Below are positions 1,501 to 43,380 of a DNA stretch of 64,000 nt, piece after piece; the stretch's first letter is position 1; each line of letters starts with the position of its first letter. The position numbers and the translations under genes were made by a program. Under the pieces are notes generated by a model. That model did no database searches. It saw only the letters and a program-made list of their open reading frames with translations, and was not told the DNA's origin. The stretch lies in IMG/VR virus record IMGVR_UViG_3300014204_007611, one strand, 5' to 3'. The stretch is from a virus.

Positions 1501-1573
1501 TTCAGCTCTCCTGATTTCGCAATCATCACCCAATCCAAATACTAAAATCGATTCTTCTAATTCCTCATCGCTA

Positions 1574-1894
1574 TTATTTATCACGTTTTGTGACTTTTGT
1601 TCCAAATCCTCCCTTGGGGATTGGGGGACGTCCAATGGACGGCGCGAGGGCCTGGGGGGCAAGATTTGGCGCGTGGAGAATTGGAGCGGAAACGGACTGC
1701 TCGGAGGCATTAACAACTCTCGTCGTTGAGCCATGCTCTCCGGAATTCGTTCCGGTGGCATCTTTCTGAAGCGGTCTTTCCAGCTTGCTATTAACAAATG
1801 AATCCCTGTCTCGGAAAACTATTATTGCTAATGTCAGCGCGACTGATGCCACAACCAAAGCCAAAACCGCAATCAGTAGTGCCACAACATCCAT
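1574..1894 (-). CDS. Small membrane protein (N-terminal TM helix), hypothetical
   Basis: 106-aa ORF with a hydrophobic N-terminus (VVALLIAVLALVVASVALTLAIIVF). It fits between the upstream GT gene and the actin-like gene if the latter starts at 1500. It is in a different frame from the extended 430..1797 reading, so the two calls are mutually exclusive. Confidence 0.3.
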   Translation of the reverse strand: MDVVALLIAVLALVVASVALTLAIIVFRDRDSFVNSKLERPLQKDATGTNSGEHGSTTRVVNASEQSVSAPILHAPNLAPQALAPSIGRPPIPKGGFGTKVTKRDK

Positions 1895-3410: not shown

Positions 3411-4046
3411 TTATATATCAAGAGTGGTCTCACCGACGATTTGAAACTGAACTCCGCGTTTTCTGATTTCGCTAATTACGGCATTCATTACTGCTCGTTG
3501 GCTGGCAGAAATGCTACCGGGCCTAGGAGTATGATAAAAATAGTGCCTACCGACACTATTAAATCCGCAGCCGTACAATACTATCTTGGTTGCACCCATA
3601 AGATAAGCAAGCTGAACCGCACAACAACTGATAGTACCGCCAAACATCAAATAATTCATATCTGACTTTAGTCTATCGGATTTATACCATCGATACATAA
3701 ACGTCAGATGCGGCTCTACGGGTGGTGGTAGTTTTACACTGCTTTGCTTTGCAGTAATAACAGCCGTGCGTTTGATGTCTTGGAATAGGTCGATTGGATA
3801 TAAGATCTTATCAGGAGCGGCAGTCAATTTAGCAATAACTCTAACTCTAGAGCAGTCAATGTTGAACCAATCGAACGCCGACGACCTAGCATCACCACAC
3901 ATGAAATAATCAAATCTCTTACCAAGCTTGGCAGCACCATTCACACCTATAGAAAGGTGTTGATTTTTAAATTCGATCGCTGTTGGTCCTGAACCAACAA
4001 CAGCTATTGTCTCACCTTTATGGATACCATGTAGCGCTTTAATCAT
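3411..4046 (-). CDS. DUF115/Maf-like putative glycosyltransferase
   Basis: IAVVGSGPTAIEF...SIGVNGAA...FMCGDARS; paralogous to the C-terminal domain of the upstream gene. Confidence 0.45.
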   Translation of the reverse strand: MIKALHGIHKGETIAVVGSGPTAIEFKNQHLSIGVNGAAKLGKRFDYFMCGDARSSAFDWFNIDCSRVRVIAKLTAAPDKILYPIDLFQDIKRTAVITAKQSSVKLPPPVEPHLTFMYRWYKSDRLKSDMNYLMFGGTISCCAVQLAYLMGATKIVLYGCGFNSVGRHYFYHTPRPGSISASQRAVMNAVISEIRKRGVQFQIVGETTLDI

Positions 4047-5905
4047 TATTTTCGTTTTAAAGAAGAAAAAACTTCACTTGTCTCTGTATCCCATTCTCCA
4101 ATATTGCAGAACGATTCCGGCCATAGTACTTTGCCGTCTCTTTCGTCAGGACCTTCATCTAAAAAGCAACCACACACAGCACATCGATTAGCGGTACGTT
4201 GTGTGCATAAAGCACATTTATCTAATCTGGCTTCAATTGTCTCAATTCTGGCTGTTTTGGCTCCAGACAATTTGTGTTTCGCTAATGCCTTTGCATAATT
4301 CCAAATCATCCTAGGCATCGCCGGTAGCTTCTTTTTATCGGCTGGATCACGACTTAATAAAGTATAACCATAATCATCATTTTGATGTTCAACGACTGAC
4401 CATTCAGGATTCTCACGCATCCATTTGCGCATCGCAATAAATAAGCCAGGACCGGAAGGTTCGCCCACTTCGCCATATGCACCAGTTGAACGCAACAGAA
4501 TCCAACGACGTGCTCTCTTGCCGAATTTAGACAATTCAGCGTATAGCCTATCAGCCTGATGTATAGAATGGATGACCAATAAATCAGTTTCATCTATGTC
4601 GGCTAGCATCATCCAATCGACCGCATAATTCGAATAACTCGTACTGCCAGCAATTTCTAATAACTGCTGATGGACTGGCGACGGCTCTGATGTATAGACA
4701 CGCAGCACTTTGGGATGCCCGGCCAACAAAGTGACATCAAACTCTTTCTGTTTGACTAATGCCGTTACATGACTACACTTCGAAGCTAAATCGCGGAAAC
4801 GCGGCATATACTTGCCCATGTTATGTGGGTGCGATTCAGTCCAAGCGAACGCCTCCTCGATTGTATTGCCTATGCGTTGACATCCAGAGCATGGTGCAAA
4901 GATGTGTCCAATGGGGTCTTCAAGAAGATAGTTCCACGCTTTTACGTCGATAGGCTTATCGGTGCCGACAAAATGGTCTTTTATTCCATCTAACGGTAGC
5001 TGCAGCTCTTGATGCCCAATTACATAGTTTCTTATTCTATCCCAATAACTTAATGGATAAGATGCTCCTCTAGGCCGCAGAAATCTGTGTGTCCATCTAA
5101 GAAATGGCAAGTTCAAGCATTTCTTACCTGCTTGTCGATACTTAATGTGAATATAGCCTTCTTCACCACCAAATCCGCGAAACGTTGGATTGAATTTAAG
5201 CCACGCATCTTTTCGGCACGTGAAAAGCCCCATCCCATTTGCTGGTATTTCGAACGGTTGGTCGTAATCGCTAGAGCCAATCGTTTTACATCCAGCGTTA
5301 TAAAATTCTGTTTCGTGGCCGTAGTATGGAATCTTCGGATATTGCAACCCACAGTCCGGGCATCGCTGGTAGGTTTTGTCAAAATCCATTAAATCGTGTG
5401 CTGTGGTATCTTCAGCCGATATCGGTATCGAGAAGTGCCACCCACATTTACAGGACCACGCGCGGCTCCAAATACCCCACATAGCACCTCGCCATGTCAA
5501 ATCGAAATGAGTCGAAATATCATGCAGGTCGTTATAAACAAGCGGGCCAGTGAGCAAATCATTATTATCTGGATTATGCTCATACCAATTTATCAGGCGT
5601 TTGATGGCACCTGGGGCGAGCATGATATGACAATCCATGCAAAGAACGAGTTCAGTTTGTGCTTCGTCGAAAACACGGCCTTTCGCATTTGCAGCGCCAA
5701 CAACATCTTCGTAAGCGATATAGCGAGCTGGCGTTTCTGCAATAAAGGAAGCGACAGCTTTACCATCTGGAGTATTTGGTGAATTATCGACGACTAGAAG
5801 CTCGACATCGCTTAAATCGTGATACATCCTCAACGCTTGGATGGAGAAATAAACCCCATCAAAGTCATTGTAATGGGCCATCCCAATCGTTAGTCTCTTG
5901 ACCAT
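4046..5905 (-). CDS. Glycosyltransferase family 2-like protein with a C-terminal Cys-rich extension
   Basis: LTIGMAHYNDFDGVYFSIQALRMY...VELLVVDNSP is a GT-A fold with a DxD-like VVDNS motif. It overlaps 3411..4046 by an ATGA junction. Confidence 0.55.
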   Translation of the reverse strand: MVKRLTIGMAHYNDFDGVYFSIQALRMYHDLSDVELLVVDNSPNTPDGKAVASFIAETPARYIAYEDVVGAANAKGRVFDEAQTELVLCMDCHIMLAPGAIKRLINWYEHNPDNNDLLTGPLVYNDLHDISTHFDLTWRGAMWGIWSRAWSCKCGWHFSIPISAEDTTAHDLMDFDKTYQRCPDCGLQYPKIPYYGHETEFYNAGCKTIGSSDYDQPFEIPANGMGLFTCRKDAWLKFNPTFRGFGGEEGYIHIKYRQAGKKCLNLPFLRWTHRFLRPRGASYPLSYWDRIRNYVIGHQELQLPLDGIKDHFVGTDKPIDVKAWNYLLEDPIGHIFAPCSGCQRIGNTIEEAFAWTESHPHNMGKYMPRFRDLASKCSHVTALVKQKEFDVTLLAGHPKVLRVYTSEPSPVHQQLLEIAGSTSYSNYAVDWMMLADIDETDLLVIHSIHQADRLYAELSKFGKRARRWILLRSTGAYGEVGEPSGPGLFIAMRKWMRENPEWSVVEHQNDDYGYTLLSRDPADKKKLPAMPRMIWNYAKALAKHKLSGAKTARIETIEARLDKCALCTQRTANRCAVCGCFLDEGPDERDGKVLWPESFCNIGEWDTETSEVFSSLKRK

Positions 5906-22074: not shown

Positions 22075-22623
22075 TCATTGAGCATGAGAAGTAATAAACT
22101 CTTCGGATAGCATCCGACGCTTATGCTCGACAGACAAAACATTTGGGAAAGCACGAATTAGAAAAGGGTTGTGAACGGCCGCGATAACCTGATGTTGTGT
22201 CGCCTTCAATTTAGCGGCGATCTTACCGATTGACCTAATGCTCAAAGCCATGTCGGGCTCGTCTAAGATGAAGCACTTCCGTGTGTCATCCTGCTCGTCT
22301 AAAACATCAAATAAAGCAAGAACACAGTTACCATGTGATTGGTAACGCATATACACATCAGCCGCGAACTTGACGTATCCTCGTGTCCTTGGATTATCAC
22401 GTTCGAAGTCGAATAGCCGCAGTTCGACCGTGCCATCACACTTGATGTCAACTAACTTCTTGAAATCCGGCTCGTTGTATATTGATGTCCGGAACAACGA
22501 TAGAAGAGAGCTTTTCCCTGTCCCTTGGTCTCCGACCAACAGATTCACACCGGGTTCGAATTCGAATAAATCGCCTTCTTTGAAACACCGCCAATCTGTT
22601 TTGAATTGTATCGATTCAATCAT
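22075..22623 (-). CDS. Compact ABC/RecF-like P-loop ATPase
   Basis: Walker A GDQGTGKSS, Walker B/D-loop FILDEPDMALS, H-loop AAVHNP. ATG at 22623; the track's GTG start at 22665 lies inside a terminator hairpin. Confidence 0.5.
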   Translation of the reverse strand: MIESIQFKTDWRCFKEGDLFEFEPGVNLLVGDQGTGKSSLLSLFRTSIYNEPDFKKLVDIKCDGTVELRLFDFERDNPRTRGYVKFAADVYMRYQSHGNCVLALFDVLDEQDDTRKCFILDEPDMALSIRSIGKIAAKLKATQHQVIAAVHNPFLIRAFPNVLSVEHKRRMLSEEFITSHAQ

Positions 22624-22640
22624 AATATACCTAAAAAAGT

Positions 22641-22671
22641 GCCCCAGTGGACATATCCGGTCCACCGGGGC
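22641..22671 (-). terminator. Rho-independent terminator
   Basis: GCCCCAGTGGAC-atatccg-GTCCACCGGGGC hairpin (11 bp with one A.C mismatch), followed on the minus strand by a TTTTTT tract at 22634-22639 immediately before the ATG of the ATPase gene. Confidence 0.55.
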
Positions 22672-22906
22672 TGGGTAATTGTATTACTACAATTTGCACC
22701 GAATTACAGAGGCCAACTTTTCCGTTTAACCACGACCCTTGAGTTTTATACCCATGCGTAATGCGATTATACGACGACCGCAGTTAGTATTCTGCCCGCA
22801 AGAGCGGTCGGCCTGAGTTGCACAGGCATACATGGTTGGTTTTGGTCGAGGACTCGATTTGGTCTCCGGTGCGATGCTGAACTTGTAGCGGTAATCTGAA
22901 CCTGGG

Positions 22907-22997
22907 TGAGCTAAAACTTGCCTCTGCCACTGGGCTATCCCCGCGTGTTCTCTTCGCAAGTGCGGGGACCAGGACTCGAACCTGGGCTTTTGGGTTT
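22907..22997 (-). tRNA. tRNA-derived locus in non-canonical order: an intact T-arm plus acceptor 3' strand module lies upstream of an acceptor 5' strand, D-arm and anticodon-arm module. It is a possible permuted or split tRNA, a tRNA remnant, or an attachment-site relic.
   Basis: Minus strand reads AAACC-CAAAAGC-CCAGG-TTCGAGT-CCTGG-TCCCCGC-A, then CTTGCGAAGAGAACAC, then GCGGGGA-TA-GCC-CAGTGGCAGA-GGC-A-AGTTT-TAGCTCA, followed by a degenerate copy of the T-arm, CCCAGGTTCAGATTACCGC. The acceptor halves are perfectly complementary. I could not fold a canonical contiguous cloverleaf. Confidence 0.3.
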
Positions 22998-23060
22998 CGG
23001 CTCATGAACTTGAATCTGAGATTGAGACTACGCTACTTTAACAACCCGTGGCCAATCAGG

Positions 23061-23798
23061 TCAGGGTGTATCGAAAACGTAGCCAAGGAAATTCTTGGCC
23101 ACTGAAACGTCTTTCACTTCAACGCTGTTCGCTTCGCCCCTCGCAGTTCGAACTGCCTCTTGGAGCTTGACGATGCGAGCAAGCATTGCACGACGGTCGG
23201 CGTCGGGAATACCGCCAGAGTACTTGATCGTCGACCAATAACCAACCGGGACGTCTTCCATCCAGGTCTCGACTTGGGCGGGGTGCTTGTCGGTGGCGTC
23301 GTACTTCACGTTGTTGCGCGGCACCTTCTTGGTCCGAATCGATTCGGACGCTTCTGTCGCATAGTCGCCGCTGTCGCCGTTCTTCGACCACTTCTCAGCC
23401 GGATCGAGAACCGGGAACTTCGCGACGAAGGTGTGCAAGTCGGTGAGTTGCTTTTCGAGGAACAACAAGTGGGTCGCCGGGACTTGGTTGATGATAGTCT
23501 TGCCATCAACAATCACGTCGGCGAAGGCCGTTGTGTTCGCGACGTCCTGGGTGGCGACGATATCGATAACGTCGGTCAGAATGGTTCTGGCCCGTTCGAT
23601 CGATTCCGAAACGCGGATCTGAACCAGCTTCGCCTCCGAAGGTAGCTTCTCACCTTCGTCGTTGATTGGCCGGTAATTCCGTGCGATGCCGTTGAGCAGG
23701 TCGGTCTTCTGATGCAATTTGTGCAGTTCGGTTAAACCCGATACTGCTCGCGCCTTCTTGCCGTCAGCAAGCGCGATAATCTGGTGTAACTTGGGCAT
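23061..23798 (-). CDS. Hypothetical protein
   Basis: 245-aa ORF directly upstream of the tRNA-like locus in transcription order. Confidence 0.45.
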   Translation of the reverse strand: MPKLHQIIALADGKKARAVSGLTELHKLHQKTDLLNGIARNYRPINDEGEKLPSEAKLVQIRVSESIERARTILTDVIDIVATQDVANTTAFADVIVDGKTIINQVPATHLLFLEKQLTDLHTFVAKFPVLDPAEKWSKNGDSGDYATEASESIRTKKVPRNNVKYDATDKHPAQVETWMEDVPVGYWSTIKYSGGIPDADRRAMLARIVKLQEAVRTARGEANSVEVKDVSVAKNFLGYVFDTP

Positions 23799-26465: not shown

Positions 26466-27455
26466 ATGAAAATCGCAAAAGTTATCGACCAATATGGCTG
26501 GGCGTACTATTTTCTAGACAAAGAGCAGCAACGGTATTCAAAACACAACATTTCAATATTTAGACATAATGAAGTAGTTTTAGACGGTCTTGATGCAGTT
26601 TATATTCACGGACCTGATATCTCTCCAGAAGCTCTTGAACTCTGTCATAGAGCTAAAAGCAAGGGTGTGAAAGTTATCGGCGGTCATGCCGGTCCTGTTG
26701 TTAACTTACAACCATATCCATACCTTGATCTTGCAGTAGGGATTTCACCACAGACATTTAAGTTCTGCAAAGAACACTATAAGTGTCCTACTATATTCCT
26801 GCCTGAAGGAATAGATACTGAATTCTTTATACCGATGAAACGAGACCAGCCTATATCAACTTGGTCTAGGGGCAGATGGCGACCATCAAACGAGAAATTA
26901 CCAATTCCGTCACTAGTAAAACGCAGTGGCAGATATGTTAACAACTTAATAGTTGGTTGGGCTGGAAGACGTGATAACGTCAAGAGAATGCATTTATTAG
27001 AACGCCTTGATTTCAAAATAGAAATACAATCACAGCACGGAAGACAATTTTTTGTTGAGAGATCTCTTGACCACATGCTGCGGTTTTACAATGCTATCGA
27101 TGTACTAGTTATGACTAGCTTAAGTGAATGTATGCCGCGAGTTGTATTAGAGGCTTGTTCATGTGGTATCCCTGTCGTTTGCACTGATGTCGGGTCTATT
27201 CGTATGATTCTCGACCCTGATTGGATCGTACCTGTTAACCCAGAGAAGACAGTAGTAGAAGAGATGAATAAGCGCCTGCATTCACTAGAGAACAAAGACT
27301 TGAGAAGTAAAGTCGGTTTCGATAATAGACAGAGAATTGAAAAGACGTTGAGTTGGAAAGTTTTATGTCCTTATTGGGATGCCGCTATGATAGCGGCGGT
27401 CGAGGGGAACGTAAGTAGTATCAACACCATCAACCGTCATTTTGGAATGATATGA
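26466..27455 (+). CDS. Glycosyltransferase family 4/1 (GT-B)
   Basis: MTSLSECMPRVVLEACSCGIPVVCTDVGSIRMIL matches the EX7E-type GT4 C-terminal motif. Confidence 0.6.
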   Translation: MKIAKVIDQYGWAYYFLDKEQQRYSKHNISIFRHNEVVLDGLDAVYIHGPDISPEALELCHRAKSKGVKVIGGHAGPVVNLQPYPYLDLAVGISPQTFKFCKEHYKCPTIFLPEGIDTEFFIPMKRDQPISTWSRGRWRPSNEKLPIPSLVKRSGRYVNNLIVGWAGRRDNVKRMHLLERLDFKIEIQSQHGRQFFVERSLDHMLRFYNAIDVLVMTSLSECMPRVVLEACSCGIPVVCTDVGSIRMILDPDWIVPVNPEKTVVEEMNKRLHSLENKDLRSKVGFDNRQRIEKTLSWKVLCPYWDAAMIAAVEGNVSSINTINRHFGMI

Positions 27456-29095
27456 AAGACTTAACAAAACAGGTCACTGCATTCGTTATTAGTTCCGGGA
27501 CGAACCCTAACTTTCAGCTATGCTTGGATGCATTAAAGACACAGACTGTTAAGGTGACTGTCGATATTGTTAAAGATTATAGTCCAATGTCTGTCGCTTT
27601 TCAACAGATGCTAGTACGGTGCAAGACACCATACTATGTCGAAGTTGATGAAGACATGATACTAAACCCAGATTCCATCGAGAAGATGTACGATGCAATT
27701 AAATCAGAGCAAGATCCTAAGTGCTCGATGATTGCTTATAGATTGCTTGATGTTCATATCGACTTCGTGATTTACGGTATCAAGATATACAAGTTCGATA
27801 TATTCAAAAAATATCCGTACGATCTCAGCCATATGTCGTGTGAGGTAGAACAGCTTGAAAGAATGAAAGCTGATGGTTATACTTACAAACTCAACGAGGA
27901 TGTTGTAGGGAAACATTCACCGTTATGGAATAATGAACTCATATTTGAGAGATATTTGAACTTGATGGAGAAGTTCAAGGAGTTTGGTTATGTTTGGCTT
28001 GAGAGTCTACCAAAGAAATTATTCGAGATTTTCAAGAAGGAACCGACAGAAGTCAACTTGTTCGCATTACTCGGCGCTTACACTAGTGTTGTTAGCGACA
28101 CTAGACTGCAGCTTGGAGAAAAGAATTTCACCGCAAAACGCCCGGAATACCACAGAATGCAGAGTTTTTTGGAACAGCCGACATCGGCGACTCTCTACGT
28201 TACGAACAAATGCAATCTTAAATGTAACTTCTGTTGGCGGCAGCATAAAGAGTTAGAAGATTTCCCAGATATGACGGCTGGCGTTATTGATGACCTGTTA
28301 TTTAGGTTCCCATCTATCCAGTCATTATGTGTTTGCGGGTTTGGAGAGCCGTTTTTATGTGAAAATTTCATATCGATAATGCAGTATATCAAGGCACCAA
28401 CATCAACTTTCCATTCATATGGTAAGAATTTATTTGTTGGGTTAATTACAAATGGGACGCTTGCAGCTGAACGGCTACCCTGGCTACGAGATGCTGGATG
28501 TTTACCTGATTATTTATCTGTGAGTCTTAATGCGTCAAACGCCGCCGAATACAAACGGACCACTGGCTATGATCTTTTTGAGCAGGCGCTGGCTGGTGTT
28601 CGTACTAGTGTCAGTTTAGGTGTTCAGACTTATCTGTCGCGTGTATGCGATAAAAACAATTTGTCAGATATAGCAGAATTTCTCGCATTAGCTAAGTCAT
28701 TGGGTGTTCAAGGCGTTCATCTACATAATATACTTCCACACTTCGATGATAATGAGAACAAACAGTTCTGGGATCTCGTCTTAACAAAAAATGATCAAGT
28801 CTTAATCGATGCAATTAAGACTTTACCAGACGCCGATATTGTCCTGCGATATCCAGTACTTATAGCCAAAGATGAAGTTAGAAGAAATTGTTTGTTCCCG
28901 TGGAAGACGATCGGTATTAACGGGAACAGATCAATTACGATTTGCAACAGTGTGTCACCACCAAGGAAAGAAAACGGCACAATTACCGATAGCATCATCT
29001 GGCAAAGCGAATATTGTCAGAAGTTTCGTGAAATGAAAGCAGGCGAACAGTGCGAAGCCTGTAAAAAATGCTTCCGCAATTGGCAGTACGACTAA
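27452..29095 (+). CDS. Fusion protein: N-terminal glycosyltransferase-like domain plus C-terminal radical SAM domain with a SPASM-like Cys cluster
   Basis: YVTNKCNLKCNFCW is the CX3CX2C radical-SAM motif. The C-terminal CNSVSPP...CEACKKCF cluster is SPASM-like. Confidence 0.55.
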   Translation: MKDLTKQVTAFVISSGTNPNFQLCLDALKTQTVKVTVDIVKDYSPMSVAFQQMLVRCKTPYYVEVDEDMILNPDSIEKMYDAIKSEQDPKCSMIAYRLLDVHIDFVIYGIKIYKFDIFKKYPYDLSHMSCEVEQLERMKADGYTYKLNEDVVGKHSPLWNNELIFERYLNLMEKFKEFGYVWLESLPKKLFEIFKKEPTEVNLFALLGAYTSVVSDTRLQLGEKNFTAKRPEYHRMQSFLEQPTSATLYVTNKCNLKCNFCWRQHKELEDFPDMTAGVIDDLLFRFPSIQSLCVCGFGEPFLCENFISIMQYIKAPTSTFHSYGKNLFVGLITNGTLAAERLPWLRDAGCLPDYLSVSLNASNAAEYKRTTGYDLFEQALAGVRTSVSLGVQTYLSRVCDKNNLSDIAEFLALAKSLGVQGVHLHNILPHFDDNENKQFWDLVLTKNDQVLIDAIKTLPDADIVLRYPVLIAKDEVRRNCLFPWKTIGINGNRSITICNSVSPPRKENGTITDSIIWQSEYCQKFREMKAGEQCEACKKCFRNWQYD

Positions 29096-29098
29096 ATT

Positions 29099-29764
29099 AT
29101 GACAGAGAAGTTCCAACCATTGGTTATAGTTGACGGCAAACAAAAATGGGCTCACGTCTCAATTCCGAAATGTGCATGTAGCTCTATTAGACGTGCTCTG
29201 GAGAAGCATTTTAAGTTAAAACCAGTTGAAAAATATGAGATGGTCCATAGCCGGAAATGGCCGCATGTAGAATCGATGAATTGGATTTCTGAGCTTGATG
29301 ACGACTGGTATACATGGGCTATTGTCCGCAATCCTTTTGATCGGCTTGTATCAGTTTGGCAAGAAAAATGCTGTACATCGGCGGCGAGACCAAATCTTGG
29401 ACCACAGCTGCAACGTTTAGTTGGCCAGCCTTTTGATGTATTTTGCAGGACGGTGTGTGCTATTATACAAGAACCACCAGAAGCAGATATACATCTTGGT
29501 TGGTATGTCCGAGGGATTGATACACATATAGCACCGATGTCGCATTTTCTACTTCATGATGGAAAATGCGTAGCCAAAGTCATACGAGAGATGCATGAGG
29601 TAGACTCTTTTTGGTCAGGTCTACAAAAACGGTTTGGTTTTCCGGACTTAGGACATCTCAATATTAGCGTCCATAAACCGCCAGATTGTTATTATACACC
29701 AGAGCTACGACGCCTCGTTGAAGATGCTTACAGTGATGATTTACGCCTCTGGTGGAGTAAATGA
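29099..29764 (+). CDS. Sulfotransferase (Sulfotransfer_2/carbohydrate sulfotransferase-like)
   Basis: IPKCACSSIRRAL resembles the 5'-PSB loop PKxGxT, and IVRNPFDRLVS resembles the 3'-PB motif RDPxxR..S. Confidence 0.5.
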   Translation: MTEKFQPLVIVDGKQKWAHVSIPKCACSSIRRALEKHFKLKPVEKYEMVHSRKWPHVESMNWISELDDDWYTWAIVRNPFDRLVSVWQEKCCTSAARPNLGPQLQRLVGQPFDVFCRTVCAIIQEPPEADIHLGWYVRGIDTHIAPMSHFLLHDGKCVAKVIREMHEVDSFWSGLQKRFGFPDLGHLNISVHKPPDCYYTPELRRLVEDAYSDDLRLWWSK

Positions 29765-30792
29765 TGCAGTATAAAGTTGTCAATCTTGGAGACGATCCGT
29801 GGAGCAGAGACCTTAAATATGAGTTAGTTAATTTACCACATTACAAAACAGCCAAACAGTGGATGCGAAATATCGACATCCCAATGGTTGAAACAGAATA
29901 TTTTCAATGGCTAGAATCACAATTAGTGGAAAACGGCAGCGTATGGAATGGACTATTAAGTAATAGAAAAGACATCATCAGACAATATCACAATTTTAAA
30001 CATCTATTCGAAATAGCTCCAAATTTCGTAGAAGAACAGCCAACAACACAAAAAATCGATGGTGTGTCTTACTATTATGGTCCAATTTGCGTGAAGATCA
30101 GAGGCAGTGGAGAAATCAGGATTTGGGATGGTATGCACAGGACATCGATCTTGCTTGCCACCAACCATCCAATTCGATTTACTATTTGTGAGCGTGAAGA
30201 TGGATGGCTTAACTTATTGAATAGCTTGAAAACATTATATCCAACGATGATGTATCAAGCTATCCCACATCCAGACTTCGCAGATTGGGCGTGCTGCGAT
30301 TATAGTATAAAAGAGCAGCAAATATCTAATGTCGTAATGGATAACGGCATCAAATCAATACTTGACCTTGGAAGCTGCCACGGTCATGTGCTTTATAGTT
30401 TAAGGGGTATCCTGCAGTCAGCCACAGGTGTCGAATACGATCCAGTTAGATATCGCGTCTTGAAGTTGTTATTCGACAAGCTAGGGTTTGAATCATATAA
30501 CGCTAACATTTTTGATGTCGTAAACAAAACAACTAAGCACTTCGACTGTGTTTTCGCGTTGGCGGTGTTCCATCATTTTACTAGAGAAAACACTATCGAA
30601 AAATTCAATACCCTATTAGATCGAATCAGCAGCATATCAGATATGCTGCTCTACGAATTACCGGAACCGGGCGAAGAGCAGCATGCGTGGATGTACCACG
30701 ACATAGATATGCATGCGATCATTCAGTCAAGATATAGAAACAGCACAGTCATACCGATACAAAATAGGAAGATGTTGTTGCTGCAGAATTAA
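29761..30792 (+). CDS. Class I SAM-dependent methyltransferase
   Basis: ILDLGSCHGHVLYSL is MTase motif I; VFALAVFHH is a motif II-like block. Confidence 0.5.
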   Translation: MMQYKVVNLGDDPWSRDLKYELVNLPHYKTAKQWMRNIDIPMVETEYFQWLESQLVENGSVWNGLLSNRKDIIRQYHNFKHLFEIAPNFVEEQPTTQKIDGVSYYYGPICVKIRGSGEIRIWDGMHRTSILLATNHPIRFTICEREDGWLNLLNSLKTLYPTMMYQAIPHPDFADWACCDYSIKEQQISNVVMDNGIKSILDLGSCHGHVLYSLRGILQSATGVEYDPVRYRVLKLLFDKLGFESYNANIFDVVNKTTKHFDCVFALAVFHHFTRENTIEKFNTLLDRISSISDMLLYELPEPGEEQHAWMYHDIDMHAIIQSRYRNSTVIPIQNRKMLLLQN

Positions 30793-30794
30793 CC

Positions 30795-31700
30795 ATGCCT
30801 AAACCATATAGTCTTTGCATTTTGAGTTTGAAGAACCCTAATAGTCTCAATGAGTCTAGAAGCTCAGTGCATATGGTGACATGGGCATTATGGAACGAAT
30901 TCTCCAAGATGCAGCATGTCACGCTAGAATTCCAAAGTATTTATGAGCCTTTGGTTGAAATATCGCCCGATTTTGTTTTATTCCATGCCTGCTTTGGCGA
31001 ACTTGAATTTGGTAGATTGGCGGAACTACGAAAACGCGCGAAATATAAAACAATGTCATTTATGGAGCTGCCACTATCAAAAGAGTACGTCGATTATTGC
31101 TTCATATATCTGCCGCAAACGACTTTTCAACATTGCGAGGAAATATCACTACCATGCCTGTCATCAGCACTAAATGAACATATCTCAACTAAAGTGCCCG
31201 GTAGTATCCTATTAGACCACATGTGGCCTCCATATCATAGGACACAAAAAGAGTGGAGTCAATATTTATATGAGTGGCTGTCTTCTTATCGAAAACATGC
31301 AAAATGCTCGATATCACAGTTACGTAGAGGTGGGTGCGAATCGATAGAGAAATTTCCGCCTTGGGTCACCCCGATACCAGAAAAACCATATACTGAATAT
31401 TTAGATGCCACTGCGCATTTTGAGACTTACATCTTAACACATCCAGGCAGTTACGAACACAGCGTTATTGATATGGCATATCGAGGCACACGTGTGCTTG
31501 TGCCTGTAATGCACGGACAGCCATTTATTCCGAAGTCAACAATAGAGCGATTAAATCTACAAACTTTTACTAGTAGATTAGATCTGTTGGCTTTATTAAG
31601 AGCACCAACTCAAGTTAAGCATAATCGTCAGTCATTTACTGATGCTGCTGAGATTGCATTGCGAATCGACAATTACTGTCAGAAAACCTTGGAGGCTTAA
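30795..31700 (+). CDS. Hypothetical protein within the glycan-tailoring operon
   Basis: 301-aa ORF, same strand, tightly packed between two methyltransferase genes. Confidence 0.4.
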   Translation: MPKPYSLCILSLKNPNSLNESRSSVHMVTWALWNEFSKMQHVTLEFQSIYEPLVEISPDFVLFHACFGELEFGRLAELRKRAKYKTMSFMELPLSKEYVDYCFIYLPQTTFQHCEEISLPCLSSALNEHISTKVPGSILLDHMWPPYHRTQKEWSQYLYEWLSSYRKHAKCSISQLRRGGCESIEKFPPWVTPIPEKPYTEYLDATAHFETYILTHPGSYEHSVIDMAYRGTRVLVPVMHGQPFIPKSTIERLNLQTFTSRLDLLALLRAPTQVKHNRQSFTDAAEIALRIDNYCQKTLEA

Positions 31701-31701
31701 C

Positions 31702-32328
31702 ATGGATATTGCTGCCGACATCACAAAATTTAGTGATATGACCGATATTGAAAATTTCGGATCTGAATATCTAGGATATCCAGCACAACAAACCCATTTA
31801 GCTTATCAGGTATTTGCCGATTTTCTCGAAGCAATCAAACCAAGTAGGATACTTGAAATCGGTACAGGTGGTGGCGGCTTCACCAACTTCCTATTCACCG
31901 TGACAACTGAACTTGGTTTAGGCTGTCAGCTTATATCATATGACATCTGCGAACGACCGTCATATTCCGATCTCAGGGTCAAAGGAGTCGACATACAAAT
32001 ACAAAATGTTTTTGATGTCGACGATTGCAAACAACATATCAAAGACTTCATCAAACAAGACGGCACTACTCTTGTTCTGTGCGATGGTGGAAACAAAAAG
32101 AATGAATTCGTAATATTGTCCGCTGTAATCAAGCCAGGGGATTATATTATGGCACACGATTACTGCGAAAATTCAGATAAGTTCTATTGTGATATGTTCA
32201 AAAAGAGATGGAATTGGTATGAAATCTGCGACAAGGATATAGAGCAAGCATGCAACGATAATCATCTAATCCCTCACAATAAAGACGCTTTTGATAACGT
32301 AGCATGGGTCTGTAGGACCCGTGTTTGA
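31702..32328 (+). CDS. CmcI/rhamnosyl-O-methyltransferase-like SAM methyltransferase
   Basis: ILEIGTGGGGFTNFL...LCDGGNKKNEF. ATG at 31702 directly after the previous stop. Confidence 0.5.
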   Translation: MDIAADITKFSDMTDIENFGSEYLGYPAQQTHLAYQVFADFLEAIKPSRILEIGTGGGGFTNFLFTVTTELGLGCQLISYDICERPSYSDLRVKGVDIQIQNVFDVDDCKQHIKDFIKQDGTTLVLCDGGNKKNEFVILSAVIKPGDYIMAHDYCENSDKFYCDMFKKRWNWYEICDKDIEQACNDNHLIPHNKDAFDNVAWVCRTRV

Positions 32329-34606: not shown

Positions 34607-35791
34607 ATGGATAGCTCAGATGGCCAATCGGCGTTGGTCGCCGAGCCGCCGAGTTCTAAAACACAAAATTTTCGCGAGCGTTATTTTCCAGATATAACCG
34701 ACGAGGATTGGGACGACTGGCGATGGCAGTTAAATAACAGGTATACGACTAAAGAACAGCTAGAATCCGTCATCGACCTCAGCAGCAAAGAGAGCATGGC
34801 AATGGTGAAACTCCATTGCCTCGGAAGATTAGCAATCAACATAACGCCATATTACCTCAGTCTAATCTCACCGACCGATCCGAACCATCCACTTCGACGA
34901 ACTGTTATCCCGACTTTAGACGAATTCTATACGTCAGTCGAAGAGGCAACCGACCCTCTAGCTGAAGACAAAGACACCCCAGTTCCGAAGCTTGTGCACC
35001 GATATAAGGATAGAGCACTCCTTTTAGTAGCTGGACAATGTGCTAGCTACTGCCGATATTGTACGAGATCAAGACTAGTTTGCGTCCAAAACGCAAAACC
35101 GGCTACGCAGCCGCAACTAAATGCCGCAATTGCGTATATCAGACAAAATACCAATATCAGAGATGTCATTGTATCTGGCGGCGACCCGCTATTGTTTGCA
35201 GATGGAGACTCAATTAGAGGCGGCAAACTCGATTCGATTTTATATGAATTGCGGCATATCAAACATGTAGAAATCATCAGAATCGGCACCAAAGTACCGG
35301 TAGTGTTGCCACAACGAATCACACTGAAGTTATGTAAGACACTGAAGAAATATCACCCATTATTTATGAGCGTCCATTTTACACACCCAGATGAACTGAC
35401 ACCGGAATGTGTAAAAGCTTGTACGATGTTGGCTGATGCAGGAATTCCGTTGGGATCACAGACGGTATTACTATCTGGCATTAATGATAATATCGAAACG
35501 ATGAAATCATTAATGCATAAACTGTTGATGGCGCGTGTCAGACCATATTACCTCTACCAGTGCGACCCGGTTGTAGGAACCGCCCACTTCAGAACTCCTA
35601 TCTCAAAAGGTATAGAAATTATCGAAGGTCTGCGAGGACATACCTCGGGATACGCAATTCCAACATTTGTAGTCGACGGACCGGGCGGTCGCGGAAAGAT
35701 ACCATTGCAACCAAATTATGTGATAGGCCAAGATGAGAATGGCACTACTCTCCGCAACTTCTGCGGAGAGATCTGTCATTATCCTGGATAA
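34607..35791 (+). CDS. KamA-family radical SAM aminomutase (lysine 2,3-aminomutase/EpmB-like)
   Basis: CASYCRYCTRS is the KamA CxxxCxxC motif, in the KamA-family context ITPYYLSLISP. The gene has a TAGGAG ribosome-binding site. Confidence 0.7.
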   Translation: MDSSDGQSALVAEPPSSKTQNFRERYFPDITDEDWDDWRWQLNNRYTTKEQLESVIDLSSKESMAMVKLHCLGRLAINITPYYLSLISPTDPNHPLRRTVIPTLDEFYTSVEEATDPLAEDKDTPVPKLVHRYKDRALLLVAGQCASYCRYCTRSRLVCVQNAKPATQPQLNAAIAYIRQNTNIRDVIVSGGDPLLFADGDSIRGGKLDSILYELRHIKHVEIIRIGTKVPVVLPQRITLKLCKTLKKYHPLFMSVHFTHPDELTPECVKACTMLADAGIPLGSQTVLLSGINDNIETMKSLMHKLLMARVRPYYLYQCDPVVGTAHFRTPISKGIEIIEGLRGHTSGYAIPTFVVDGPGGRGKIPLQPNYVIGQDENGTTLRNFCGEICHYPG

Positions 35792-42096: not shown

Positions 42097-43380
42097 ATGC
42101 CTTTCGACAAAATCAACGCAGAGGAATATATGTCAGCCAATTATCCAAATCGCAGAACTACCAAAACATATCCATTCACACCAGGCAAAAGTGGCGAGAT
42201 GGTGGTCGTGACGACCGACGGTGGCGCTGGATCATCAGGCAAGGGATCTCTTAATTCTTGGTTAGCTGACAAATACGATTTCCATCTAGCGACCAACAAT
42301 TGGATGACGAACGCTGGCCATTATACGGAACTTGACGACGGCACACGGATACTGGTCCAGCACATTCCGTCAGCATTCATCAACAAGAACACGCGACTCT
42401 ACATCAACGCCGGTGCTGCGATCGATCTGAAAACGTTGTTCAGCGAAGTAGCAAACCTCGAATCGCTCGGCTTCCAGATTCGCGAAAGATTGATCATCCA
42501 TCCGCTAGCCAACGTAATAACTGAAGAGAACAAGCAATATGAGCGTGAAACCATCAAGACTGGTAGCACGTTCAAGGGATGTGGTGCGGCTATCGCAGCA
42601 AAGGCTATGCGACTACCACAGCAAAAACTGGCGAGAGACTACGAGGAACTCCGCGAGTTCTGCACAATCGCCGATTTAACGATGGAGTTGAATCACGGCA
42701 TAGCCAAATATGGCATGCGAGTTCTTGTTGAAGGTTCGCAAGGCGTCGATCTTGACCTCAACTTCGCCGAATACCCATATTGCACCTCGCGGCAAACGCA
42801 CCCGACACAACTTGTAGCAGATGCTGGTCTTCCTGGTAGAGCAATCACAAATGTCGTCATCAATTTACGCACCAATCCGATACGCATTAGCAACGAGTCG
42901 GCTGCAACCGGTGAGCAATGCTACACCGGCAATTACTGGGAAGCAAGAGAAATCGGGTGGGAAGCTGTAGCGAAGCAGGCCGGATATGATAACTTCGATG
43001 AGTTCGTCGAAGAATACAGATATGCAATGATGACGTCCGTCACCAAGAAGGTCAGACGCATCTTCGAATTCCCGACCGAAAGGGCGAAATATGTGAACGC
43101 TCTGGCTGGCGGTCTGCTCAGAGACGGCCGCGTTCTCTATAGCCTCAACTTCATCAATTTCGTTGACAGAACCGTCAAAGGCAAGACGACATACGAAGAA
43201 GTCTTCACGCCAAAGGTTGTTAATTGGTTGCGGATGCATTTGCAGCCGGTGCTCGAAAATAATGGCACGTATGTTGCCAGTGTGAACGAAAGCTGCGATG
43301 ACTTGTCTGATATGTCGCAATTCTTCGGATTGCATTGGGTCAGAACTGGACCGAAGCACAGCCAAATAGTCGAGTTATGA
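42097..43380 (+). CDS. Adenylosuccinate synthetase (PurA) family enzyme; a divergent phage homolog that could be PurZ-like
   Basis: The protein is colinear with E. coli PurA: a GAGSSGKGS P-loop where PurA has GDEGKGK (the catalytic Asp is replaced by Ser), TNAGHY for GHNAGH, TIKTGSTFKGCGAAIA for IGTTGRGIGPAYE, VEGSQGVDLDLNFAEYPYCTS for [21 protein letters not shown], and KKVRRIFEF for GRRRRTGWLD. Confidence 0.65.
   Translation: MPFDKINAEEYMSANYPNRRTTKTYPFTPGKSGEMVVVTTDGGAGSSGKGSLNSWLADKYDFHLATNNWMTNAGHYTELDDGTRILVQHIPSAFINKNTRLYINAGAAIDLKTLFSEVANLESLGFQIRERLIIHPLANVITEENKQYERETIKTGSTFKGCGAAIAAKAMRLPQQKLARDYEELREFCTIADLTMELNHGIAKYGMRVLVEGSQGVDLDLNFAEYPYCTSRQTHPTQLVADAGLPGRAITNVVINLRTNPIRISNESAATGEQCYTGNYWEAREIGWEAVAKQAGYDNFDEFVEEYRYAMMTSVTKKVRRIFEFPTERAKYVNALAGGLLRDGRVLYSLNFINFVDRTVKGKTTYEEVFTPKVVNWLRMHLQPVLENNGTYVASVNESCDDLSDMSQFFGLHWVRTGPKHSQIVEL

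What the first reader, a model, noticed from the sequence alone, without database searches (positions are those of the whole stretch)
22872..23000. tRNA-derived locus in permuted order: the 3' half precedes the 5' half
On the minus strand, an intact T-arm plus acceptor 3' strand (CCAGG-TTCGAGT-CCTGG-TCCCCGC-A) is followed after 16 nt by the matching acceptor 5' strand, a D-arm and an anticodon-like arm (GCGGGGA-TA-GCC-CAGTGGCAGA-GGC-A-AGTTT-TAGCTCA). A degenerate second copy of the T-arm follows. The sequence AAACC at the start of the 3' module can pair 4/5 with AGTTT, and the TGAGC immediately upstream of AAACC is perfectly complementary to GCTCA at the end of the 5' module. That is the arrangement expected for a circularly permuted tRNA precursor. 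Alternatively it is a remnant of tandem tRNA genes, or a tRNA 3'-end duplication of the kind found at integration sites. No contiguous canonical cloverleaf can be drawn. The locus sits in a 380-nt non-coding gap that ends with a strong terminator.
Basis: seen in the sequence. Interest (0 to 1): 0.6.

Follow-up and report, generated by a model that had tools for sequence, protein, structure and literature searches.

The report
Double tRNA-mimic RNA beside DUF7873
The "scrambled tRNA" is real, but it is one of two tRNA-shaped domains in a ~400-nt non-coding RNA that sits next to one uncharacterised protein gene (DUF7873) in jumbo phages and hundreds of bacterial species, and I found no prior description of it.

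Summary
In detail: on the minus strand, a T-arm and acceptor 3' strand precede the matching acceptor 5' strand and D-arm, and a helix closes the unit.

It is not a tRNA precursor, a decayed tRNA tandem or an attP relic. It is module 1 of a ~400-nt structured RNA (window ~22633-23040, minus strand). A second permuted tRNA-like module lies at 22752-22835, long enclosing helices surround both, and the RNA ends in a terminator.

The RNA follows the DUF7873 gene (23061-23798) in seven jumbo-phage contigs, in cultured Arthrobacter phage Mimi (unannotated there), and in 75 of 80 sampled bacterial genomes. At least 571 species encode DUF7873.

Across 141 distinct modules, 97.6% of pair cells are paired and 18 of 20 pairs show compensatory changes. 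D-loop position 18 co-varies with T-loop position 55, so the tRNA elbow is under selection. Ordinary tandem-tRNA junctions lack both acceptor complementarity and DUF7873.

The closest known relatives are YrlA-type bacterial Y RNAs, but it fails YrlA's membership tests: Rfam score, Ro60 neighbour, 5' motif and size. ARAGORN and Rfam miss it, and no paper mentions DUF7873.

The likely mechanism is a tRNA-mimicking RNA that forms a complex with DUF7873 and may be cut by RNase P and given a CCA tail. That part is inferred, not shown.

The parts
22633..23040 (-). Whole non-coding RNA gene (approximate). The 5' end is set at the start of the conserved block and the 3' end at the terminator T-run.
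   Evidence: Conserved block in 7 phage loci. 76 consensus pairs, 97.6% of cells paired, 15 pairs with double changes against 6.4 in shuffles. Fold z = -3.15 for the whole gap.
23061..23798 (-). DUF7873 (PF25283) protein gene, the constant upstream neighbour of the RNA.
   Evidence: Pfam E = 1.4e-95. 4869 protein clusters. The RNA follows it in 75 of 80 genome loci.
23031..23036 (-). Outer helix H1, 5' strand GTAGCG. It pairs with 22885-22890.
   Evidence: RNAalifold pairs 88-93/238-243 with CG->UA and GC->AU double changes.
22994..23004 (-). Module 1 closing helix (anticodon-stem position), first strand TGAGC-CG-AAAC. It pairs with 22907-22918.
   Evidence: Compensatory changes in relatives: GCTCA:TGAGC -> AGTCC:GGACT, GTTTCACTC:GAGTTGAAAT, AGCCA:TGGCT. 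All 5 pairs co-vary across the family and 91.6% of cells are paired.
22986..22993 (-). Module 1 variable-region equivalent (CCAAAAGC).
   Evidence: Position between the closing helix and the T-arm. The family consensus is NNCAGT.
22969..22985 (-). Module 1 T-arm CCAGG-TTCGAGT-CCTGG.
   Evidence: 4 of 5 pairs co-vary across the family. The T-loop is canonical, TTCGANT.
22962..22968 (-). Module 1 acceptor 3' strand TCCCCGC.
   Evidence: 7-bp helix with 22938-22944. All 7 pairs co-vary and 99.6% of cells are paired.
22945..22961 (-). Module 1 acceptor-closing loop ACTTGCGAAGAGAACAC. It starts with a discriminator-like A, then C and T.
   Evidence: Loop length across the family is 4-62 nt, but the first bases are A (73 of 78), C (62 of 78), then C/T.
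22938..22944 (-). Module 1 acceptor 5' strand GCGGGGA.
22919..22937 (-). Module 1 positions 8-26: TA + D-arm GCC-CAGTGGCAGA-GGC + A.
   Evidence: TRGCCCA...AGAGGC is invariant in 49 sequences from several phyla. D-loop position 18 co-varies with T-loop position 55.
22907..22918 (-). Module 1 closing helix, second strand AGTTT-TA-GCTCA.
   Evidence: See 22994-23004.
22891..22906 (-). Conserved CAGAYT-type motif and 3' strand of helix H2.
   Evidence: Aligned with ...CTCAGATTATY... in bacterial copies. RNAalifold pairs it with 23005-23025.
22885..22890 (-). Outer helix H1, 3' strand CGCTAC.
22859..22872 (-). Long helix H3, 5' strand GCACCGGAGACCAA, which encloses module 2.
   Evidence: 14 pairs with 22696-22716, six of them with double changes among 7 phages.
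22752..22835 (-). Module 2, the second permuted tRNA-like domain. Closing helix CCATG (22831-22835) / CATGG (22752-22756); T-arm GCCTG-TGCAACT-CAGGC (22811-22827); acceptor CGACCGC (22804-22810) / GCGGTCG (22775-22781); closing loop of 22 nt (22782-22803); D-arm region (22757-22774).
   Evidence: Scanner hit. RNAalifold recovers it with compensatory changes, e.g. CGACCCAT/ATGGGTCG and CCACG/CGTGG in L007. R1 with filters off scores 16.2 bits, E = 6e-6, with all 20 pairs standard. Bacterial copies have a module at the same position, about 150 nt after module 1.
22696..22716 (-). Long helix H3, 3' strand TTGGCCT..TTCGGTGC.
22677..22694 (-). Small hairpin AATTGTA-GTAA-TACAATT before the terminator.
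   Evidence: Seen in the fold. Its sequence varies between phages.
22633..22671 (-). Intrinsic terminator: 12-bp G+C-rich hairpin plus a T-run.
   Evidence: The hairpin sequence is nearly invariant in 7 phages.

Best explanation
The flagged locus is the first of two circularly permuted tRNA-like domains in a ~400-nt structured non-coding RNA (window ~22633-23040, minus strand), encoded directly downstream of the DUF7873 gene.

Each domain is a complete four-way junction in the order: closing-helix strand, variable region, T-arm, acceptor 3' strand, loop, acceptor 5' strand, D-arm, closing-helix strand. Each therefore folds like an L-shaped tRNA whose acceptor stem is capped by a loop and whose anticodon stem is replaced by a helix leading into the rest of the RNA. 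There is no anticodon, so it does not decode.

DUF7873 plus this RNA form a self-contained two-part cassette that occurs in jumbo phages and in hundreds of bacterial species.

Shown: the structure, its covariation including the tertiary 18:55 contact, its distribution, and its linkage to DUF7873.

Inferred: (a) the RNA and DUF7873 form a ribonucleoprotein. (b) The two tRNA-shaped domains are recognised by tRNA-handling enzymes. By analogy with the 7-bp closed acceptor of M. smegmatis YrlA, they are cut by RNase P at the 5' side of the acceptor 5' strand, and the upstream piece is trimmed and completed to CCA, leaving pieces held together by base pairing. (c) The tRNA mimicry serves stability or docking to a tRNA-binding partner.

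I put the identity claim at about 0.9 and the processing/RNP mechanism at about 0.4.
For: Anatomy in the window.

Second module and enclosing helices.

Conservation in 7 jumbo-phage contigs whose flanking protein falls to 65% identity and whose downstream gene differs.

Bacterial copies: gaps after DUF7873 in three unrelated contexts contain the same RNA. In 80 genome loci my scanner finds modules downstream in 69, against 0 of 80 in upstream flanks, 0 of 80 in shuffles and 1 of 80 on the reverse strand. Model R1 finds at least 1 module in 75 of 80 and at least 2 in 60 of 80.

Covariation: on a MAFFT alignment, 16 of 20 pairs have double changes, with a score of 0.539 against 0.160 for shuffles and at most 0.145 for slid registers. 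The closing helix, which the scanner did not require, is 75.5% paired. On the model-fitted alignment of 141 distinct modules, 97.6% of cells are paired, 18 of 20 pairs have double changes, and the score is 0.761 against 0.190.

Tertiary covariation: G55 goes with A18 in 14 of 14 modules; U55 goes with G18 in 93 and never with A18.

Independent, non-training hits: phage Mimi 69.1 and 32.5 bits in an unannotated 409-nt gap after its DUF7873 gene 144; L217 73.4 bits; L150 71.7 bits.

Reverse test: among junctions selected by DNA pattern alone, 14 of 17 with complementary acceptor strands have DUF7873 adjacent, against 0 of 76 with non-complementary strands.

Fixed geometry: module 1 starts a median of 78 nt after the gene end, and module 2 a median of 150 nt after module 1. 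No third conserved gene.

Processing analogy: every acceptor is 7 bp. The loops vary from 4 to 72 nt yet begin N-C-C/T, and 40 of 148 encode NCCA. M. smegmatis YrlA with a 7-bp closed acceptor is cut at the RNase P site in vivo and gains CA to complete CCA (PMC4201824).
Against: No expression data: there is no direct evidence that the RNA accumulates, is cleaved, or binds DUF7873.

DUF7873 is near-neutral (pI ~6.6) and has no recognisable RNA-binding or catalytic fold.

The linkage is not absolute. Five of 80 genome loci have no detectable RNA within 1.5 kb. Three viral contigs have the RNA without an adjacent DUF7873, two of them inside tRNA arrays. One locus has the RNA on the opposite strand.

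Acceptor loops as short as 4-6 nt in actinobacteria may be poor RNase P substrates.

The T-arm and acceptor pairings in alignments A3 and A4 were partly selected for, by the scanner and the model. R1 scores up to ~53 bits on some true tandem-tRNA junctions.

No sigma-70 promoter was found in the window.
Confidence: 0.85

Rival explanations
1. It is a YrlA-type Y RNA in the strict sense: a Ro60/Rsr-binding RNA whose Ro60 gene lies elsewhere in the genome. DUF7873 would then be only a syntenic neighbour.
For: The element order is the same as YrlA: V, T, closed acceptor, D, on a stem formed by the flanks (PMC4201824). Rfam YrlA (RF02553) hits module 2 of bacterial copies at 40.5 bits (E = 1e-7 in a local search), 26.1 and 23.6 bits, and aligns the outer helices too. 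M. smegmatis also has two Y RNAs made from one precursor.
Against: All hits are far below Rfam's gathering score of 69, and the window gives no YrlA hit at E <= 10. No TROVE domain was found in any window ORF scanned or within 6 kb in three bacterial contexts. The GNCGAAN0-1G motif is not conserved: the window has GCCGAAAC, L002 GGACTAAAAC, L005 GAACAGAAAC. The RNA tracks DUF7873 with fixed spacing across phyla. Permuted tRNA-likeness alone can produce such sub-threshold scores; Chen et al. warn about tandem tRNAs.
Confidence: 0.07
2. It is a cis-acting 3'-UTR element of the DUF7873 mRNA, for example a tRNA-like processing or stability signal, and not an independent trans-acting RNA.
For: It lies on the same strand at a fixed ~78-nt offset from the DUF7873 stop codon. 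No sigma-70 promoter was detected in the gap. tRNA-like structures are known RNase P-dependent 3'-end processing signals (MALAT1/mascRNA, established knowledge).
Against: A structure of about 400 nt with two elaborate domains and about 76 conserved pairs is far more than a processing signal needs. In L098 it is on the opposite strand, in L031 it is ~900 nt away, and in L150, L172 and L206 it occurs without an adjacent DUF7873. Several phage loci have a terminator-like hairpin between the gene and the RNA.
Confidence: 0.06
3. It is a circularly permuted two-piece tmRNA-like gene that works in trans-translation.
For: The gene order matches permuted ssrA genes of alpha-proteobacteria: helix strand, T-arm, acceptor 3' strand, intervening segment, acceptor 5' strand, then about 280 nt and a terminator (established knowledge). 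The total length is about the size of a tmRNA.
Against: ARAGORN, which models permuted tmRNAs, finds nothing. No Rfam tmRNA family matches at E <= 10. Position 3:70 is G:C in the window and G:U in only 10 of 141 modules. A full D-stem is present. There are two tRNA-like domains. Candidate reading frames are broken by indels between close relatives, e.g. ACTAAC-TGCGG against ACTAACCTGCGG.
Confidence: 0.02
4. It is a genuine circularly permuted tRNA gene, matured by cleavage and ligation into a decoding tRNA.
For: The order is permuted, the acceptor strands are complementary, and the ends pair.
Against: No 7-nt anticodon loop can form. The closing helix has no bulge-helix-bulge motif, and its sequence and internal loop vary freely. 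It continues into conserved outer helices. Permuted tRNAs are known only where a tRNA-splicing endonuclease exists, in algae and archaea (established knowledge). No RtcB or ligase was seen among the ORFs scanned.
Confidence: 0.02
5. It is a decayed remnant of tandem tRNA genes, or an attP-type duplication of a tRNA 3' end.
For: The RNA often lies beside or inside phage tRNA arrays. Tandem-tRNA junctions give weak R1 and YrlA-type hits.
Against: Acceptor strands are perfectly complementary and co-vary, whereas 97 real tandem junctions are non-complementary. The whole element is conserved across phyla and 0 of 80 upstream control flanks contain it. No integrase was found.
Confidence: 0.01

Closest known systems
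YrlA-type bacterial Y RNAs (Rfam RF02553; Chen et al. 2014, PMC4201824)
   Same: Both have a permuted tRNA-like domain in the order V, T-arm, loop-closed acceptor stem, D-arm, sitting on a helix formed by the flanking sequence. Both have a canonical T-loop and a D-loop GG. Both are found in bacteria and phages. The 7-bp closed acceptor matches M. smegmatis YrlA, which is cut by RNase P and CCA-tailed. The Rfam model gives sub-threshold matches to bacterial copies.
   Different: This RNA has two tRNA-like domains in one ~350-400-nt RNA, where YrlA has one in ~100-150 nt. Its neighbour is DUF7873, not Ro60/TROVE. It has no conserved GNCGAAN0-1G motif. It scores 18-40 bits against the gathering score of 69, and the window copy is not detected at all. 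It has additional conserved helices and motifs (CTCAGAYT, AAATCGA, TTAAACGGA).
Circularly permuted two-piece tmRNA (alpha-proteobacteria, some cyanobacteria and beta-proteobacteria)
   Same: The gene order of the tRNA-like domain is permuted, with an intervening segment between the acceptor 3' and 5' strands. The overall length is similar. A dedicated small protein partner (SmpB) is the analogy for DUF7873.
   Different: This RNA has no G3:U70, no tag reading frame, a real D-stem and two tRNA-like domains. ARAGORN and the Rfam tmRNA models do not detect it.
Circularly permuted tRNA genes of Cyanidioschyzon merolae, other algae and Thermofilum pendens
   Same: The 3' half is encoded upstream of the 5' half, and the acceptor strands are joined by a linker that RNase P and tRNase Z would remove.
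   Different: Those genes yield decoding tRNAs through a bulge-helix-bulge motif and the splicing endonuclease. Here there is no anticodon loop and no BHB motif, and the context is bacterial or phage.
MALAT1 mascRNA and viral 3' tRNA-like structures
   Same: These are tRNA mimics embedded in longer RNAs and recognised by RNase P and the CCA-adding enzyme.
   Different: Those are not permuted, occur singly at a 3' end, and belong to eukaryotes or plant viruses.

Membership tests
YrlA / bacterial Y RNA (RF02553) | Permuted tRNA-like domain: V region, T stem-loop, loop-closed acceptor stem, D stem-loop | tested here: met
YrlA / bacterial Y RNA (RF02553) | Reaches Rfam's curated gathering score (69 bits) | tested here: not met
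   Window: no hit at E <= 10. Bacterial relatives: 40.5, 26.1, 23.6 and 18.1 bits.
YrlA / bacterial Y RNA (RF02553) | Encoded within ~4 kb of a Ro60/Rsr (TROVE) gene on the same strand | tested here: not met
   Neighbours within 4 kb are DUF7873, an ABC/SMC-like ATPase, methyltransferases, dUTPase and a YkwD-like protein. No TROVE domain in any window ORF scanned or in L018-L021. The rest of the ~390-kb phage genome was not seen.
YrlA / bacterial Y RNA (RF02553) | GNCGAAN0-1G motif near the 5' end (the presumed Ro60 contact) | tested here: not met
   The window has GCCGAAAC, where the last base is C and not G, and the motif is not conserved in L002, L004 or L005. In L019 the motif position aligns to GCACGGACG.
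YrlA / bacterial Y RNA (RF02553) | Bound by Ro60 in vivo | not testable with these tools
   Needs immunoprecipitation.
Circularly permuted tRNA gene | 3' half upstream of 5' half, with complementary acceptor strands | tested here: met
Circularly permuted tRNA gene | The ends form a bulge-helix-bulge motif, and joining them creates a 7-nt anticodon loop | tested here: not met
   The closing helix has a 2x2 internal loop in the window and 3x3 in L002, it continues into outer helices, and there is no conserved loop or anticodon.
Two-piece (permuted) tmRNA | Detected by ARAGORN or by the Rfam tmRNA models | tested here: not met
Two-piece (permuted) tmRNA | G3:U70 alanine identity pair | tested here: not met
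   G3:C70 in the window. G:U in 10 of 141 modules.
Two-piece (permuted) tmRNA | Conserved tag reading frame with a resume codon and a stop codon | tested here: inconclusive
   By inspection no frame is conserved, and 1-nt and larger indels separate close relatives. No formal ORF-conservation test was run.
attP / tRNA 3'-end duplication | Integrase present, and the duplicated segment identical to a host tRNA 3' end | tested here: not met
   No integrase among the ORFs scanned. The host is unknown, so identity to a host tRNA could not be tested. Covariation across phyla contradicts a relic.
DUF7873-linked double tRNA-like RNA (family proposed here) | Two permuted tRNA-like modules ~150 nt apart, on the same strand, starting ~80 nt after a DUF7873 gene | tested here: met
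   Window. Family.

The most novel reading that the evidence does not exclude
Both acceptor loops are excised by RNase P and 3' trimming, and both upstream pieces are CCA-tailed and then aminoacylated. A73 is nearly invariant in module 1 and the D-arm is invariant, which are the kinds of features read by synthetases that ignore the anticodon. The DUF7873 particle would then carry two charged tRNA-like arms joined through their 'anticodon' helices. Such a particle could occupy two neighbouring tRNA sites on the ribosome, as a new kind of ribosome-directed regulator or rescue factor. Alternatively it could feed an aminoacyl-tRNA-dependent reaction catalysed by DUF7873. Jumbo phages would carry their own copy to manipulate translation.
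Probability: 0.08. Interest if true: 0.95.

Novelty: new variant of a known kind. Interest (0 to 1): 0.78.

Why it matters
If this holds, a large and apparently undescribed structured RNA family with a dedicated, highly conserved protein partner sits unannotated in Streptomyces, Nocardia, Micromonospora, Ktedonobacteria, Planctomycetota, Polyangiales and other bacteria, and in jumbo phages. The protein is about 50% identical between phages and actinobacteria.

It extends tRNA mimicry by bacterial non-coding RNAs beyond the Ro60/Y-RNA system: a second protein partner, a dual-domain design, and a phage-borne version.

It gives DUF7873 its first functional lead.

It warns annotators that standard tRNA and Rfam tools miss the RNA, and that spurious ORFs are called across it in high-GC genomes.

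It offers culturable systems in which to test whether closed-acceptor tRNA mimics are generally cut by RNase P and CCA-tailed: Arthrobacter phage Mimi on A. globiformis, and many Streptomyces strains.

Tried and rejected
- ARAGORN on the window and on 8 loci found nothing at the element.
- Rfam at gathering scores found nothing. Permissive scans gave only sub-threshold YrlA hits in bacterial copies.
- The single-sequence fold of the 131-nt piece was not significant (z = -0.85), so thermodynamics alone would have dismissed the finding.
- Exact-pattern searches for the junction and for the 3' domain in viral contigs mostly returned chance hits (L009, L012, L014, L016). L017 was useful only in showing that GCCTG-TGCAAYT-CAGG is a T-arm.
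- The tmRNA tag-ORF idea was dropped after indels were seen between close relatives.
- An apparent conserved downstream protein in 38 loci proved to be spurious translation of the RNA itself.
- The five genome loci without the RNA stayed empty with the filters off.
- Seven full-text literature searches found no description of this RNA or of DUF7873. The library lacks most subscription journals, so prior description cannot be excluded.
- The metagenome scan and the large HMMER representative search were not used.
Full report
**1. What is in the sequence**

It has a canonical T-arm (CCAGG-TTCGAGT-CCTGG) and a 7-nt acceptor 3' strand (TCCCCGC). Next come an A and 16 further bases, then the exactly complementary acceptor 5' strand (GCGGGGA). 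After that come TA, a D-arm (GCC-CAGTGGCAGA-GGC) and A. Finally AGTTT-TA-GCTCA pairs back to TGAGC-CG-AAAC upstream of the T-arm.

The minimum-free-energy fold is a four-way junction with this topology, but its energy is not unusual (z = -0.85). ARAGORN finds no tRNA or tmRNA in the whole window. Rfam finds nothing at gathering thresholds and no tRNA, tmRNA or Y-RNA match at E <= 10 around the locus.

The locus lies in a gap between a DUF7873 gene (23061-23798, Pfam E = 1.4e-95) and a small ABC/SMC-like ATPase ORF. The gap ends in a strong terminator at 22641-22671. The window is from a large phage-like genome, with glycosyltransferases, a dUTPase, a helicase and SbcCD-like genes.

**2. It is part of a larger conserved RNA with a second module**

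DUF7873 relatives in IMG/VR gave six jumbo-size contigs whose proteins are 65-97% identical to the window's. In all of them the ~400 nt after the gene are conserved, although the next gene differs.

- window: GCTCA:TGAGC
- L002: AGTCC:GGACT
- L004: GTTTCACTC:GAGTTGAAAT
- L006: AGCCG:CGGTT
- L007: AGCCA:TGGCT

A chance pattern hit (L017) showed that the conserved motif GCCTG-TGCAAYT-CAGG further downstream is a T-arm. This revealed a second permuted module in the window at 22752-22835: CCATG / GCCTG-TGCAACT-CAGGC / CGACCGC / 22-nt loop / GCGGTCG / TC-GTA...TAC-G / CATGG.

RNAalifold on the seven phage sequences independently recovers both modules. It also recovers an outer helix around module 1 and a 14-bp helix around module 2. 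On that alignment there are 76 pairs and 97.6% of cells are paired. Fifteen pairs show double changes, against 6.4 in shuffles (0 of 500 reach 15) and at most 4 in slid registers. The whole gap folds better than shuffles (z = -3.15).

My structural scanner fires in the 64-kb window only at these two adjacent sites, plus one isolated hit at +1424. Shuffles average 0.13 hits, and none reaches 2.

**3. The RNA is widespread in bacteria and tied to DUF7873**

DUF7873 has 4869 protein clusters and occurs in at least 571 species' genomes. In three unrelated bacterial contexts the only shared feature is a 450-600-nt unannotated gap after the gene. Each gap contains the same two-module RNA.

In 80 genome loci the scanner finds two modules downstream in 51 and one in 18. 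The controls gave 0 of 80 in upstream flanks, 0 of 80 in shuffles and 1 of 80 on the reverse strand. These loci span Streptomyces, Nocardia, Micromonospora, Kitasatospora, Ktedonobacteria, Chloroflexia, Anaerolineae, Planctomycetota, Polyangiales, Blastocatellia, Armatimonadota and Deinococcales.

A covariance model of module 1 (R1) finds at least one module in 75 of 80 loci and at least two in 60. The geometry is tight: module 1 starts a median of 78 nt after the gene end, and module 2 a median of 150 nt later. No third gene is conserved. An apparent one was spurious translation of the RNA.

The reverse test used DNA only. I scanned viral contigs for the junction pattern (GGTTCGANTCC, 21-51 nt, TAGCCCAANNGGNAGAGGC):
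- 97 matches had non-complementary acceptor strands, so they are ordinary tandem tRNA genes. None of the 76 with enough flanking sequence had DUF7873 nearby.
- 17 matches with fully complementary strands had room to judge, and 14 of them had DUF7873 adjacent.
- Of the three exceptions, two are real modules embedded in large phage tRNA arrays.

Cultured Arthrobacter phage Mimi has the RNA (69.1 and 32.5 bits) in an unannotated 409-nt gap after its DUF7873 gene 144, beside its tRNA array.

**4. Strength of the structural evidence**

On a MAFFT alignment of 49 module-1 segments (long loops trimmed), 16 of 20 pairs have double changes. The covariation score is 0.539, against 0.160 for shuffles and at most 0.145 for slid registers. 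The closing helix, which the scanner did not require, is paired in 75.5% of cells with 4-5 pair types per position.

On the model-fitted alignment of 141 distinct modules, 97.6% of cells are paired and 18 of 20 pairs have double changes. The score is 0.761 against 0.190, and the closing helix is 91.6% paired.

Two caveats apply. The T-arm and acceptor pairings were partly selected for by the scanner and by the model. R1 also scores up to ~53 bits on some true tandem-tRNA junctions.

There is independent tertiary evidence. All 14 modules with G at T-loop position 55 have A-G at D-loop positions 18-19. Among modules with U55, 93 have G-G and none has A-G (Fisher p ~7e-8, not corrected for phylogeny). 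The G55 modules occur in both module positions and in several phyla. So the D-loop/T-loop elbow, and hence an L-shaped fold, is under selection.

**5. How it probably works**

*Shown.* It is a structured RNA with two permuted tRNA-shaped domains, each with a 7-bp acceptor stem capped by a loop, and it is linked to DUF7873.

*Inferred.*
- The acceptor loops vary from 4 to 72 nt in length and freely in sequence. Even so, they begin with a discriminator-like base, then C, then C or T. Module 1 has A in 73 of 78 and C in 62 of 78, and 40 of 148 loops encode NCCA.
- In M. smegmatis, YrlA also has a 7-bp loop-closed acceptor. It is cleaved in vivo at the RNase P site, and the upstream half gains CA to complete CCA (PMC4201824).
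- By analogy, I propose that RNase P and the CCA-adding enzyme process one or both modules, leaving base-paired pieces. I also propose that DUF7873 binds the RNA to form a particle that displays two tRNA mimics.

What the particle does is unknown. The protein model is confident (pLDDT 89) but matches no known fold or family. The protein is also near-neutral (pI ~6.6). Its ~50% identity between phage and actinobacterial copies suggests that it acts on conserved cellular machinery and is not an arms-race target.

**6. Comparison with known systems**

The closest known family is YrlA-type bacterial Y RNAs. It has the same element order and a closed acceptor stem, and the Rfam model gives sub-threshold hits to bacterial copies.

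Membership fails on four defining features that I tested:
- Rfam score: 18-40 bits in bacterial copies against the gathering score of 69, and no hit at all in the window.
- Ro60/TROVE neighbour: absent.
- 5' GNCGAAN0-1G motif: not conserved.
- Size and architecture: ~400 nt with two domains, not ~100-150 nt with one.

Other candidates also fail:
- Two-piece tmRNA shares the permuted order, but G3:U70, a tag frame and detection by ARAGORN or Rfam are all missing.
- True permuted tRNA genes need a bulge-helix-bulge motif and an anticodon loop, and neither is present.
- The relic and attP readings are contradicted.

**7. Novelty and verdict**

Rfam 15 has no family for this RNA. No paper in the searchable library mentions DUF7873 or such an RNA. 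Subscription journals are largely outside that library, so an earlier description cannot be ruled out.

I classify it as a new variant of a known kind (tRNA-mimicking, Y-RNA-like non-coding RNAs). It has a different protein partner and a dual-domain design, and phages carry copies of it.

Its preferred identity, a permuted tRNA precursor, and both of its alternatives are not supported.

Noticed in passing
window 42097-43380 (+): An adenylosuccinate-synthetase-like gene whose best NCBIfam match is PurZ, the succino-amino-deoxyadenylate synthase (176.9 bits, below the 300-bit cutoff but above all PurA models). The phage might make 2-aminoadenine (Z) DNA.
   Followed up: partly
window 430-1797 (-): An actin-like protein matching Pfam Volactin (E = 5e-42), with a weak MamK match. 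This looks like a cytoskeletal-type gene in a jumbo phage.
   Followed up: no
window 34607-35791 (+) and neighbours 26466-32328: A KamA-family lysine/glutamate 2,3-aminomutase-like radical SAM enzyme (E = 5e-140) sits among a second radical SAM gene and many glycosyltransferases and methyltransferases. This may be a modification or glycan cluster.
   Followed up: no
window 22075-22665 (-): The ORF just after the RNA is a short ABC/SMC-type ATPase with weak matches to defence ATPases (PtuA, GajA, AriA, mad3). It is not conserved next to the RNA in other phages.
   Followed up: partly
L017 (IMGVR_UViG_3300042563_004760) ~2440-2560: Right after a tRNA-Asn lies a tRNA-like gene with acceptor, D-arm, an odd T-loop (TGCAATT), an encoded CCA and a ~40-nt insertion in the anticodon/variable region. 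ARAGORN does not call it.
   Followed up: no
L172 8350-8560; L206 9665-9753; L102 (phage Mimi) 2026-2287 beside tRNAs at 3578-5012; L019 5574-5646: The RNA tends to lie among tRNA genes. It is inside large phage tRNA arrays without an adjacent DUF7873 in L172 and L206, beside the tRNA array in Mimi, and immediately followed by a genuine tRNA-Leu(tag) in Allorhizocola.
   Followed up: partly
L098 2368-2613 (-); L031 3116-3720: Two layout exceptions. In a Ktedonobacter genome the RNA is on the strand opposite to DUF7873. In another Ktedonobacterales genome it lies ~900 nt downstream and is followed by a partial third module at the locus end.
   Followed up: no
L038, L039, L043 (Herpetosiphon), L058, L072 (Nocardia): DUF7873 genes with no detectable RNA within 1.5 kb, even with the model's filters off. 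The RNA may be lost, divergent or located elsewhere.
   Followed up: partly
L034-L101, about 2230-2560 in each: In high-GC genomes, long Arg/Pro-rich ORFs in several frames and on both strands run across the RNA and cluster as if they were conserved proteins. This is a likely source of mis-annotation.
   Followed up: yes
window 22641-22671 (-) and the same position in L002-L007: The terminator hairpin GCCCCGGTGGA...TCCACTGGGGC is almost invariant in seven phages whose flanking protein drops to 65% identity, which is more conserved than a simple terminator needs to be. The motif occurs nowhere else in the window.
   Followed up: partly
window +1424: A single scanner hit (T-arm-like plus complementary 7-mers, loop of 10) inside the volactin-like ORF. 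This is consistent with the chance rate of about 0.13 per window.
   Followed up: yes
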